Part shown: piece by piece, positions 33,717 to 41,592 of the stretch
Position numbering within the stretch: the first letter of the stretch is position 1
How the letters are laid out: the number at the start of each line of letters is the position of its first letter
DNA from: Paramecium tetraurelia
Lineage: Eukaryota
Direction of reading: 5' to 3'
Assembly (NCBI GenBank): GCA_000165425.1
Contig: CT868230.1
Coordinates: forward strand, 372,001 to 436,000
DNA length: 64,000 bases
Program-made: the position numbers and the translations under genes
The notes under the pieces: generated by a model
Databases searched by the model: none
Seen by the model: only the letters and a program-made list of their open reading frames with translations
What the model was told of the DNA's origin: nothing

Positions 33717-33842
33717 TGCATAATAGAAATATAATTGCAATTTTATTCTTCTATTAAAATGAGTAAATGTTGCCTTTTAAATTATGTTAAATGTTAGAAT
33801 ATAAAATAATTTATTAAAGATTTTTTAAAAATTTAAAATAAT

Positions 33843-34258
<416 letters not shown>

Positions 34259-34326
34259 TATTATTATGAATAGTACAATAATAAATAAATATGTTTAATA
34301 ATTCGAATTCATTTATTTAAATAGTT

Positions 34327-34709
34327 ATGAATTCTCAACAATAAACTAATCCAGAATACTTCCCACCTCCGACCTATTATTGCAATAAGAATGGCCATGA
34401 ATTAACCTGGAAATCAAGTAGTGGTCATCCATGTGCAGAATGTAAGATTAAAAATTGCAGATCTCGTTATTGGTGCTAGTAATGCTAAGAAGCATTCTGT
34501 TTGCAATGCATGCCTCCACCATTGTTTGGAATTATGTGTGGAGCAGGCCATCCGTAAACTCTTAATTACTATTTTAAAGAATGAAATTGAGCATTGTACC
34601 TCATCACGTGTGCGATTATTGCAGTGAAACAATTTAAAATTAAGCACATAGATGTTAAATCTGTGACTTCGACATATGTTTGAATTGTCTACTGCAAAAA
34701 GAGGATTGA
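34327..34709 (+). CDS. Small protein of two Cys/His-rich zinc-finger repeats (C1/ZZ-like)
   Basis: CNKNGHEL..CAEC..YWCQQCQEAFCLQC and CGAGHPM..CDYC..HRCQICDFDICLNC. Confidence 0.75.
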
Positions 34710-37008: not shown

Positions 37009-37806
37009 ATGTCAAGGAGATACGACTAAAAAACTAATACCTTCACTCCAGATGGCAGATTGAAATAAGTGGAATATGCAATCGAGGCAATTAATCAAAC
37101 AGGCTCAGCACTTGGAGTACTAACTAATGAGGGAATGATTTTGGCTACAGAAAAACAAGAAGTATCACATCTCTTAGAACATTCAAAACATTCTGAGAAA
37201 ATCTATCCAATCGATAGACACATCTTCTCAGTTGTTTCAGGTCATACAGCTGATGCAAACATTTTGATTAATTATGCTAGAGAAGCTGCTGCCAATCATA
37301 GGTAAATTGTGAATCAAATCCTAGATATTAGTTTTAAGATAACATTGCCTTAGAATAATTGATAATAAACATATGCGATTACAAACAGAATAAAACCTAA
37401 GTAGGTGGGTAGAGACCTTTCGGAACAGCATTCCTATTTGCTGGTTATGATAAAAAAAATGGTTTTCAATTATTTAGCACTGATCCATCAGGTAATTATG
37501 CTGGGTGGAAGGCCACTGCAATTGGAAAGAATAATTTAGCAGCTAATAGCTATTTAAAGCAAGATTACAAAGAAAATTTAACCTTAGAATAAGTACTATA
37601 ATATAAGAGTTTTTTAGGGATTAGATATCGCAATAAAAGCACTCGTGAAAACTATGGATACATCGTCTCCTTAGCCTTCTAAAATAGAGATTGTCGTTAT
37701 CAGTTAATAAGGAAAAGAAGTCAAGAGTAAAACCTATAATGAAAAAGAAGTTTTGAGTTTACTTTAAAAAAATGGGTTTAGCAATGAACAAATGTAACAG
37801 GAATGA
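37009..37806 (+). CDS. PSMA4: 20S proteasome subunit alpha-3 (PSMA4/Pre9)
   Basis: [64 protein letters not shown]. Confidence 0.95.
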
Positions 37807-37985: not shown

Positions 37986-38915
37986 TCATTACTTCAAATT
38001 TGCTACTAGTTTGTGAACATTTTCATTCCAATTCATCTTTGTACCTGTAATTGGTAGGGGTCTTCTCATTGCTTTAAAGAATATGTCTGGCATGGAATTA
38101 TATAAATTATCCATTCCTGCTAAATGTCTATTCTCTAATCTAGTGATTGTGTGAATAATCTATTTGGCACTCTCGCTTGCAGTAGACAAATCTACATTGA
38201 TTCCTTCTGAGAAGGTATTTACATTTTTTAATTACACATTTCCATCTTCATAATAATGTGCTTGCACTTTCAAATCACCTTTCAATTGTGTTTTTGTGAA
38301 TTCCCAGGTTGAGATCCAACTTCCACAGCTATTATATTATGCATTAATTTACAAAAAGTTTGGCAAGTTAATTGTTTTTGCAGTAATTCCAATATAGAAT
38401 GTAAAATCTGAAGCGTCACCTTGATACATAACTAATTTCATGTATTTAAATTATACCATAAGCTCCACAAACTTTCTCATTAAATTGCTAAGTCAAATAA
38501 AGATTGAGTTATTATTCAAGGGCATCTCTAAGTTGATTCAATTCAGGATCTGAAGGTAACTCAACTTAGGATCTGGATATGACTTCTAATTTTTCATGAT
38601 CCACTTAAATTGTCTCATTGTTTTTCTAATCTACATAAAAGTCCTCTTAAGAATTCAGAACGCTTGTAAGGATCTATTGATGTCATCAGAGACACTTACT
38701 TAAGTGCTTTAGCCTTTAAACAAAGCCAAGTGTTCCTCATTATGATCCCTCAATGCTTGTAGCATAATAGAATGCTATGGATTAATATTCCCAATGATTT
38801 TACACAAATCCTTAATCACTAAATTAGCTTATCCAAATGGTGTATTCTTTACGATATACTTGACTACTTTCTCATGTTGTTCAAGTTAGTTGACTTCTCC
38901 TTCTTCTTAATTCAT
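37986..38915 (-). CDS. CAPZA: F-actin capping protein alpha subunit
   Basis: [52 protein letters not shown]. Confidence 0.92.
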
Positions 38916-38987
38916 TATATATCTTTTATAAATTAAATATAATCATCTTTAATAGTTTCAGAGCAGATATTCAATATCATATAATAT

Positions 38988-39118
38988 GTTTGTTTGTGTT
39001 CTATTCACATAGATGTTTCATTCCTTTAGAACAATCTACTCAGAGAAACACAATTAATCTTAGAGATCAATGCTAATTGACTACTATAGAAATAACCAAC
39101 CATCGCTTTATCTCTCAT
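38988..39118 (-). ncRNA. Candidate box H/ACA snoRNA (two hairpins, H box AGATTA, 3' ACA)
   Basis: Minus strand: hairpin 1 (lower stem AGAGAT/ATCTCT, 12-bp upper stem with G-U pairs), H box at 39060-39055, hairpin 2 (TGTGTT/AACACA and TAGAT..ATCTA), ACA at 38993-38991. Confidence 0.7.
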
Positions 39119-39200
39119 ACACAATCACCAAAAGTTAATATTAATATTTAATTATTATTATATTTATTATCCTCTTAATTATGTAGTACTAAATATGATG

Positions 39201-41592
39201 TCATTTATTCTGTTTTTGTTTCAATTTTGAATACCAAGAAGGACCATCTTCCTATTTTTATTAACTACTTTGAATTCCACCTTGCAATTAATGCAAATTC
39301 ATACCCTTTTTTTAGATCGCACTTTGAGGATCAATATATGTCTTTGTATTTAAGGCTTCCGACATCTCATTTATGGCACTTCTCAGATTTTATCTCATAT
39401 CATTCTAACTACCAGTGGCAATACCAATCAAAATGTTCTAAATGTTTTGTAGGTTCTGTCTTTTAATTCTCAATCTCTATAGATCCTCTTCAGCTCGCAT
39501 GAATCTCTATTAAATTTATACACTAATAATTACATTGGCTACATCATCGTTTTCTGCTTTTAGGATCTAATAATCCTAATCCATTTTCTTTAAAAGGGAT
39601 TTATATTTCAAAATTTCTCTATCCTTTTCCTCAATATGGGCTACGAGATAGGAATGACTAAAATAAAAGATATTTAATGAATATTTACGGTTAATGTGTT
39701 TTGTCAAGTACATCTCTTTATAATTTGGTCTCTTCCTATAGTCTCTCAATCTCTTATGACTTATCTCTTAATTGTCTTTGCAATTCCTCTGATTCTCTTT
39801 ATTTTGCTTGCAATCTCTAAGCGAGATTTAATGCCTGTTGAATCCTTCTTTTTGAAGATGTAGGTACAGTGCCCATGAATCCCAATAAAGGATTCATTGC
39901 ATCATATTCATTGCCTGCTGATTTCATTATGGCATCATCAATTTCTTTTTCAATTCCTTCATAATTAGTTAATTGTTCTTTTGCAACTTGCAATTAAGCA
40001 TTTATGCTGCTCATCTATTCCTTAGCCTCTACCTAACACTTATAATACTCTGCCTTCAACACGTTGATCTTCTCCCTTAACATTTCATTTTCATGCTTTG
40101 TAGCTTTAAGATTGGCCAAAGTATCTTCATAGATATTCTATACTCTATCCAACTCTTCCACCTTCAATCTTAATTGAATTCTCTATTCAGATAAGTCCCC
40201 ATCTAATTTTCTTTATAAGTTTCTATAATCAATTAGCAAATGATCATATAAAGTTGATTTTTCCTTCACTTGCCCTTCTAGATTATCTTTTCGAAGTTAA
40301 ATTTCCTCCTTTGCATCCTTCAAGAATTTGATTTGAGTCTCATAAATATCAACTAAATTCTATTTGGCAATTTCCAATTCATGATGATGCTTCTCTTTAA
40401 GATCTGCAATTTCTGAGTAAATTCTTTTTTCATAAGCCTGAGTCTAATCTGTTTTAGAATTGAGTAATTAAAATAGATATTCTTAAGCTTAGTTTTTTGC
40501 TTCCAAATACTCCTTCTCTGTCCTATCTAATTTGTCCTCCAATCTCTTAACCTTCTCCAAAAGTTAAATATTCTCCTTAGTCAAATATTCCTTGTCTTAT
40601 TGCAAAAGGTCTCCCTTCCTCTTGGCGTCATCCTATGCCTTGTATTAATCACCTGCCTTGTCTCCGGCTTAATTATTTTGATAGAAACCAGCCTTCTCTT
40701 CCAATAAAAACTTCTCTTACTCCAATCTCTTATAATCCCTACTTAATTCATCAAATCTTGCTCCCTTCTCTCTCAACAGGGCTAATTCCTCTTAAGATTT
40801 TGTTAATTCTAACTCCAAAGCCTTTCTAGCATTATCATAATTTAATTTATGTCTTCTAATATCCTCTTCTCTGTCTACCATCATCTTTTAGCCATGTTCC
40901 AAATCATTCAATAAGAATTAATGCTTCTCTGTTATCTATCTGAGTTCTTCCCTTAAAGCCAATATTTCCTTTTTCTAAAACTCCCCCTCCTTTTTGAATG
41001 GATACACAATTTCCCAAACCTAAACCAATACCCAATCTTGAATGGGCATTTCCTTCTCATTCATATCTCGCAACCTCAGATAAACAGCCTCTGGGACCAA
41101 TCCAGCAAGCATATCTCTAACTTAAGCCAAAGCTTCTCTTATGCCTGGTAATTGAGACTCTTGATAGATCATCTTAGACTTTAGTTATTTGATTTCACTT
41201 AAAAGTTTATCTGTTTCAATTCGATGATTAGCAAAAACTCTTTGTCTATCAGCGTCATTGGCTGCTTGGATCCTTTTGATCTCAGCATTTAGAAAAGCTA
41301 TTTATTTTTCCTGCATGCCCACAACGGATGAATAATTCTAAAAATGGATCGATTACAATAATACATTTTTCATATTGACTGTATCATGAGTGTTCCCCCC
41401 TCTGTTATGTTTAGTCTATTGATAATTCTCAATATCAGCTATGGATACCGAATCCCTCATACTATCTGATTCACTGTCACTCATCATCACTTAGCCTTAT
41501 TCAAATTATCTTATATCTTCCTCAGAAAATGTGGTTGGATCTATATTCATCGATTTCATAAGTTTTATGATGTCTTTTCTCTTCGTACTCAT
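39201..41592 (-). CDS. PIBF1: PIBF1/CEP90-like basal-body coiled-coil protein
   Basis: EAVYLRLRDMNEKEMPIQDWVLVQVWEIVYPFKKE, long coiled coil, C-terminal PSWYSKLK. Confidence 0.75.

What the first reader, a model, noticed from the sequence alone, without database searches (positions are those of the whole stretch)
38988..39118. Hidden two-hairpin box H/ACA snoRNA candidate between PIBF1 and CAPZA
Seen: the 285-bp gap between two minus-strand genes is long for this window. Its minus strand reads AGAGAT-AAAGCGA-TGGTTGGTTATT-TCTAT-AGTAGTCAATTA-GCATTG-ATCTCT, where the upper stem pairs at all 12 positions, five of them G-U. Next come A-AGATTA (ANANNA H box), a second hairpin TGTGTT...TAGATTGTT...AACATCTA-TGTGAAT...AACACA, and A-ACA-AAC. 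Upper-stem-to-box distances are about 13 and 16 nt. Known: this hairpin-H-hairpin-ACA layout with ~14-16 nt spacing defines H/ACA pseudouridylation guides, and the G-U pairs work only on this strand. Inference: a stand-alone guide RNA of about 130 nt. I could not assign a target.
Basis: partly seen in the sequence, partly recalled or inferred. Interest (0 to 1): 0.7.

Follow-up and report, generated by a model that had tools for sequence, protein, structure and literature searches.

The report
Expressed box H/ACA RNA in Paramecium
A real, expressed 130-base guide RNA of the well-known H/ACA kind sits between two Paramecium genes; it probably directs a chemical change (pseudouridine) in ribosomal or splicing RNA, but its target is not settled.

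Summary
Window 39117-38988 (minus) folds as hairpin, H box, hairpin, ACA+3. A public small-RNA run lays 366 reads, all on the minus strand and only on this stretch; 244 begin at 39117, and cloning-linker tails join at 38987-38989. Poly(A) reads show empty gaps on both sides. A genome-duplication twin on contig C114 keeps hairpin 1 (20 of 20 pairs), changes only N positions of ANANNA, keeps ACA+3, and is expressed too. No Rfam family matches. Against: hairpin 2 keeps only 13 of 19 pairs, there are no double-sided compensatory changes, and the snRNA-type upstream element is absent. The target is unresolved: the genome lacks rDNA, so another Paramecium's rRNA served as proxy, and best hits changed with the method (hairpin 1: LSU D2 or U1; hairpin 2: U2 U46/47 here, LSU helix-81 loop in the twin; 3-12% of shuffles do as well). 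Verdict: a new or merely unlisted member of a known class; it may be among 142 annotated snoRNAs I could not see.

The parts
38988..39117 (-). mature box H/ACA RNA, 130 nt
   Evidence: 366 small-RNA reads, all minus strand; 244 start at 39117; linker tails at 38987 (4 reads) and 38989 (12 reads); no single read spans the whole (longest read 75 nt)
39062..39115 (-). hairpin 1: 6-bp lower stem, pocket (39109-39103 and 39073-39068), 12-bp upper stem, 5-nt loop
   Evidence: 20 of 20 window-predicted pairs kept in the twin, 2 one-sided changes
39055..39060 (-). H box (ANANNA) in the single-stranded hinge
   Evidence: AGATTA here, ATAGTA in the twin; only N positions differ
38995..39052 (-). hairpin 2: 6-8-bp lower stem, pocket (39046-39040 and 39008-39001), interrupted upper stem
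   Evidence: 13 of 19 window-predicted pairs kept in the twin; right pocket strand differs at 5 of 8 positions
38991..38993 (-). ACA box, followed by 3 nt (38990-38988)
   Evidence: twin keeps ACA+3; read 3' ends at 38987-38989
39130..39150 (-). AT-rich stretch conserved in the twin just upstream; possible promoter element (inference); no AAACCCAT USE
38655..38915 (-). first exon frame of F-actin capping protein alpha; poly(A) reads begin in 38905-38925
   Evidence: PF01267, E 1.5e-6

Best explanation
A two-hairpin box H/ACA guide RNA. Shown: a discrete 130-nt minus-strand RNA with the hairpin-H-hairpin-ACA+3 anatomy, retained and expressed in two copies after the last genome duplication. Inferred from the known class: each hairpin plus its box binds the Cbf5/dyskerin, Nop10, Nhp2, Gar1 core, which protects the ends, and the pockets pair on both sides of a uridine 14-16 nt from the box to have it isomerised to pseudouridine. 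Hairpin 1 is the constrained, surely working guide (pocket identical in both copies). My best guess for its substrate is rRNA, at the bulged U in the LSU D2 expansion (U526 of the proxy), with U1 snRNA U114 second. Hairpin 2's pocket has diverged between the copies and is either decaying in this copy or has changed target.
For: Expression and ends. Conservation: (hairpin 1 plus H box 59 of 63 identical; flanking spacers 55 of 73 and 68 of 84; flanking coding 79-84%). Layout rarity. Size inside the 124-136 nt range of Tetrahymena H/ACA RNAs, which are mostly intergenic single genes (PMC3273799). LSU D2 U526 of a congeneric Paramecium pairs 6+5 nt (3 G-U) at distance 14; rank 1 by energy (3 of 100 shuffles as good) and rank 2 by pair count.
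Against: No target is significant by both methods; six pocket-by-method tests were run, so 3-4% tail values are weak. The species' own LSU was not available and D2 is highly variable. No double-sided compensatory change; paired columns are not more conserved than unpaired ones (11 of 78 vs 9 of 52, p 0.63). Hairpin 2 plus ACA (48-51 of 67) is no better conserved than the spacers. Near-invariance of hairpin 1's upper stem is more than a plain guide needs. Protein binding, location and modification were not testable.
Confidence: 0.85

Rival explanations
1. An H/ACA RNA that guides spliceosomal RNA (scaRNA-like): hairpin 1 targets U1 U114 at the stem III / closing-helix junction, and hairpin 2 of this copy targets U2 U46 or U47 through a three-nucleotide-unpaired pocket. 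This is a sub-case of the best explanation with a different substrate.
For: U1 site uses the genome's own sequence, is the same in 4 of 4 U1 genes, pairs 6 + 3 (+2) Watson-Crick at distance 14, top by pair count (3 of 150 shuffles when only snRNAs are scanned, a post-hoc subset). U2: 7 + 6 pairs, -14.3 kcal/mol, 4 of 100 shuffles; the twin's right strand pairs 8 of 8 with U2 36-43. Three-nt-unpaired pockets work on U2 (PMC5733568); T. brucei has an H/ACA-guided U2 pseudouridine 46 (PMC6698659).
Against: U1 hit: 37 of 300 shuffles as good over all targets and it fails the energy filter (right arm -2.3). U2 hit scores only 7.7 by pair count, below the null mean 10.6, and is not kept in the twin. 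No UGAG CAB box in either terminal loop; GAAG only in the twin (consensus ugAG, PMC4041459). Vertebrate U2-47 has a methylation guide (mgU2-47).
Confidence: 0.2
2. An orphan or non-modifying H/ACA RNP (RNA chaperone or other role): the core binds, but the pockets pair with a substrate without making pseudouridine, for example 5.8S rRNA, where both arms of hairpin 1 fit around a GA rather than a UN.
For: No convincing UN target. In the proxy 5.8S sequences the right pocket strand matches 6 of 6 and the left partly, with GA at the apex (read by eye). 8 pockets in 5 Tetrahymena H/ACA RNAs also had no target.
Against: The closest proxy (L019) has a mismatch in the left arm; the fit was not tested against a null; the own LSU, tRNAs, U3, SRP, spacers and mRNAs were not scanned, so absence of a target is not shown. 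No U17/snR30 motifs.
Confidence: 0.1
3. Not a functional RNA: a stable piece of read-through from the upstream gene or of the capping-protein 5' leader, the fold being chance.
For: Modest folding z-score; no USE; twin identity over the whole RNA (82-85%) close to the background of the duplicated block (80-92%).
Against: Sharp 5' end (244 reads), 3' ends at ACA+3, zero small-RNA reads on the flanking mRNAs and zero poly(A) depth on both sides; box-specific conservation.
Confidence: 0.04

Closest known systems
[quoted passage not shown]
   Same: Size 124-136 nt, two hairpins with pockets, ANANNA hinge, ACA+3, mostly single intergenic genes.
   Different: 22 of 27 intergenic single snoRNA genes there carry the AAACCCATAA USE; this one does not. 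By eye none of the listed sequences or predicted targets matches this RNA or my candidate sites; no alignment was run.
Annotated P. tetraurelia snoRNAs (142 loci, PMC6735861; going back to Chen et al. 2009, recalled, not held)
   Different: I could not see the list, so cannot say whether this locus is in it.
Box H/ACA scaRNAs guiding U2 (SCARNA15, SCARNA8; T. brucei TB11Cs6H1)
   Same: A pocket that can pair with the U2 branch-recognition / stem IIa region, possibly with 3 nt unpaired.
   Different: No canonical CAB box; positions 46/47 rather than 34-44; not conserved in the twin; untested.
U17/snR30 processing H/ACA RNA
   Same: H and ACA boxes.
   Different: 130 nt against 243 nt in Tetrahymena, no inserted helices, m1/m2 motifs absent.

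Membership tests
box H/ACA RNA | two hairpins joined by a single-stranded hinge | tested here: met
   MFE and centroid agree; twin folds the same way, z -2.54; upper part of hairpin 2 differs between copies
box H/ACA RNA | H box ANANNA in the hinge | tested here: met
   39060-39055; twin changes two N positions only
box H/ACA RNA | ACA three nucleotides from the mature 3' end | tested here: met
   ACA 38993-38991; linker-joined ends at 38987 (4 reads) and 38989 (12 reads, consensus agreement 0.69); linker identity recalled
box H/ACA RNA | pocket apex 14-16 nt from the box | tested here: met
   hairpin 1: 13, or 14 with the terminal U-A open; hairpin 2: 15 here, 14 in the twin
box H/ACA RNA | discrete stable transcript of about 130 nt | tested here: met
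   one small-RNA run; continuity from overlapping reads, none full length
pseudouridylation guide | bipartite complement around an unpaired UN in a substrate | tested here: inconclusive
   method-dependent hits; proxy rRNA only
pseudouridylation guide | binds Cbf5/Nop10/Nhp2/Gar1 and directs pseudouridine | not testable with these tools
   needs pull-down and modification mapping
scaRNA | CAB box (ugAG) in a terminal loop | tested here: not met
   no UGAG in either loop; GAAG only in the twin's hairpin-2 loop
scaRNA | snRNA target | tested here: inconclusive
   U1 U114, U2 U46/47 candidates
U17/snR30 | m1/m2 motifs and about 240 nt | tested here: not met
   (exact motif search; motifs partly recalled, partly read); length 130
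any Rfam 15 family | covariance-model score at gathering threshold | tested here: not met
   0 hits in the window; best E 3.1 and 7.6 in the gap
USE-driven ciliate snRNA/snoRNA gene | AAACCCATAA upstream | tested here: not met
   present before 10 of 10 snRNA loci printed, absent in 120 nt before both copies; none of the window's 4 exact 8-mers lies upstream of the RNA

The most novel reading that the evidence does not exclude
After the last genome duplication the two copies kept hairpin 1 but split hairpin 2: the twin still guides the first loop uridine of LSU helix 81 (6+4 Watson-Crick pairs, distance 14), while in this copy three right-strand changes turned those pairs into G-U wobbles and created a new 7+6-pair match to U2 snRNA U46/U47. 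That would be a caught-in-the-act retargeting of a guide from ribosome to spliceosome, in a USE-less gene, in an organism with 25-nt introns.
Probability: 0.12. Interest if true: 0.6.

Novelty: new member of a known kind. Interest (0 to 1): 0.3.

Why it matters
It adds a read-supported H/ACA RNA that Rfam misses, in a lineage whose pseudouridine map is not in the papers I could search. The class is well known, so the surprise is low. The useful part is the pair: one pocket frozen, one diverged after a genome duplication, which makes guide retargeting or decay directly testable by modification mapping, and a gene without the usual upstream element raises the question of how it is transcribed.

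Tried and rejected
Rfam: nothing. Own rDNA: not found by family, motif or DNA search; the first two used a stricter first look. Ciliate rDNA in viral and prokaryote collections: one short or unrelated locus, nothing usable. Metagenome scan gave 10 loci; 4 hold a full LSU; only L019 looks like a Paramecium (by eye), so (Frontonia-like proxies) were redone on L019 plus 5 own snRNAs, 6,040 nt, 1,586 U. Hits to variable regions of the other proxies were dropped. SSU helix-23 U (window hairpin 2) is in the P. tetraurelia row but scores below the null (178 of 300). Older paralogues: none by DNA search at E 10 or by the model over 14 held sources, 111,745 bases; the whole genome was not searched with the model. 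No homologue in viral contigs. No RNA holder was listed on record; the two contig runs laid (X8, X13) had no depth on the RNA, which shows nothing. Earlier scan findings: none. Chen et al. 2009 not held. Paper searches for a known pseudouridine in helix 81 or U1 stem III, or for a P. aurelia LSU alignment, gave nothing usable; 5.8S motif search in a supplement found nothing (blocks and gaps may hide it). siRNA/miRNA hairpin rejected: depth stays about 330-340 for over 60 nt from the common 5' end, single strand. Telomerase RNA and Arisong RNA rejected on anatomy from recall, not by alignment.

Full report
Setting. The genome has 72,094,543 bases in 697 contigs and reads in code table 6; with the assembly figures I recall, this is Paramecium tetraurelia. 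The stretch lies between a stop at 39201 and an ATG at 38915, both minus strand, 285 bp apart. Published mean stop-to-start distances for this species are 287-332 nt (PMC5485702, passages), so the gap is ordinary in size.

Observation. The sequence is as quoted. MFE and centroid give two hairpins with an open hinge holding AGATTA and a tail ending ACA+3. The energy alone is unremarkable (16 of 200 shuffles as low), though the plus strand is clearly worse. A layout scan of my own found this as the only site in the window at -10 kcal per hairpin, against 2 in 23 shuffled windows; at -7 kcal real and shuffled counts are close (3 against 20 in 23). The thresholds were set knowing the candidate. 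Rfam has no match.

Expression (4 of the 24 runs listed). Small-RNA run X24: 366 reads of 16.45 million, all on the minus strand, with depth only in the 8 bins from 38968 to 39135; 244 begin at 39117. Depth is 328-340 over 39052-39114, falls where 75-nt reads end, and is about 25 down to 38989. Loose tails at 38987 (4 reads) and 38989 (12 reads) read, on the minus strand, as one or two extra A and then a small-RNA cloning linker (identity recalled), which places 3' ends at ACA+2 to +4. A further 12 loose ends at 39060 (agreement 0.59) look like a mix of twin reads and fragments ending at the H box. No read is full length. Oligo-dT run X21: both flanking mRNAs are seen in the same orientation, depth is 0 at 39136-39156 and 38926-38967, and 1-5 on the RNA. 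The two contig runs had no depth there, which shows nothing. So the mature RNA is a separate 130-nt species. This is one small-RNA run.

The twin. One other copy exists, on C114, in a block co-linear at 80-92%. Hairpin 1 plus H box is 59 of 63 identical, above the spacers (55 of 73, 68 of 84); its two changes turn G-U to A-U and U-A to U-G, and the H box changes only at N positions. The twin's two alleles occur in 17 of 340 and 14 of 334 small-RNA reads and in 4 of 4 and 4 of 5 oligo-dT reads, so it is expressed; the 95% filter makes the ratio meaningless. Against: hairpin 2 plus ACA is 48-51 of 67 identical, only 13 of 19 window-predicted pairs survive, paired columns are no more conserved than unpaired (p 0.63), and no pair changes on both sides. 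The 32 of 32 pairs use a structure chosen with both copies in view. The twin folds better than this copy (z -2.54; hairpin 2 z -3.36).

Transcription. AAACCCATAA precedes 10 of 10 snRNA loci printed but neither copy. In Tetrahymena 22 of 27 intergenic single snoRNA genes have it (PMC3273799, section 21). Either the conserved AT-rich stretch at 39150-39130 is a promoter, or the RNA is trimmed out of run-on transcript beyond the upstream gene's poly(A) site, its ends protected by the H/ACA core. I cannot decide; both are inference.

Targets. The assembly holds no rDNA that I could find. A peniculid primer from PMC5161471 (passage) fetched 10 metagenome loci, of which L019 matches the P. woodruffi / P. 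nephridiatum rows by eye and has a full LSU. With L019 and five own snRNAs, a pair-count scan gave: hairpin 1, U1 U114 (37 of 300 shuffles as good), then LSU U526; this copy's hairpin 2, nothing (178 of 300); twin's hairpin 2, LSU U2642, first loop base of helix 81 (13 of 300; helix name recalled). An energy scan gave: hairpin 1, LSU U526 (3 of 100); this copy's hairpin 2, U2 U47 or U46 (4 of 100); twin, nothing (17 of 100). Numbers count from the model start, not from mapped ends. Only LSU U526 ranks high in both, and it lies in the variable D2 region of another species. At the helix-81 site this copy's right strand keeps three pairs as G-U and loses two pairs in all, the picture of a decaying or switched pocket; but that loop differs among the four proxies. 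Three-nt-unpaired U2 pockets can work (PMC5733568, passages), T. brucei has an H/ACA-guided U2 pseudouridine 46 (PMC6698659, passages), and C. elegans U1 showed only position 5 (PMC1276797, passages). The same U2 paper warns that predictions often fail. tRNAs, U3, SRP RNA, spacers and mRNAs were not scanned for pockets.

Mechanism. Most likely an H/ACA RNP guide (0.85): anatomy, ends and conservation are shown; core binding and catalysis follow from the class and are inferred. Within that, rRNA is my preferred substrate for hairpin 1; an snRNA substrate for at least one pocket is about 0.2.

Comparison and novelty. It meets every H/ACA feature that could be tested, fails the CAB-box, U17 and USE tests, and matches no Tetrahymena H/ACA RNA by eye (supplement parts 1, 2, 4, 5, 6 of 7 read). 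P. tetraurelia has 142 annotated snoRNAs (PMC6735861, passages and its one held supplement); the source paper, Chen et al. 2009 (recalled; cited in PMC3177221, passages), is not held, and its tables bear directly on novelty. Ten paper searches (listings only) showed no description of this locus. Other papers touched: PMC9143557 (passages), PMC8351944 (term search, no hits), PMC4041459 (passages). Verdict: real, expressed, a new or unlisted member of a known kind; interest 0.3.

Noticed in passing
L002:1556-1683 minus (G000:C114): The duplicated copy is expressed, folds better than the window copy, and supplies nearly all of the few oligo-dT reads over the RNA (4 of 4, 4 of 5), which may mark a polyadenylated precursor of that copy.
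   Followed up: partly
window 50321 minus (ACA position): A weaker H/ACA-like layout (-9.8 and -7.8 kcal) in very AT-rich sequence; it overlaps long stop-free frames and such hits occur about once per shuffled window.
   Followed up: partly
window 24881 plus (ACA position): Another weak layout hit, inside a long open frame and not two-hairpin in the full fold; likely chance.
   Followed up: partly
window 39107-39097 minus: The left pocket strand and the start of the upper stem resemble, in the same sense, a stretch near the 3' end of the genome's U6 genes (seen by eye); probably coincidence.
   Followed up: no
window 39080-39071 minus: A 10-nt perfect complement to U4 snRNA 56-65, the longest found; one base is changed in the twin and it overlaps the upper stem, so it has no guide geometry.
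   Followed up: partly
L021: A metagenome contig whose SSU differs sharply from all other peniculid loci at helix 23 but looks Paramecium-like further 3'; possibly a chimeric assembly.
   Followed up: no
window 33759-34400 and 37009-37806 plus: Neighbouring genes read as a ubiquitin-ribosomal protein fusion and a proteasome alpha subunit (by eye; names recalled).
   Followed up: no
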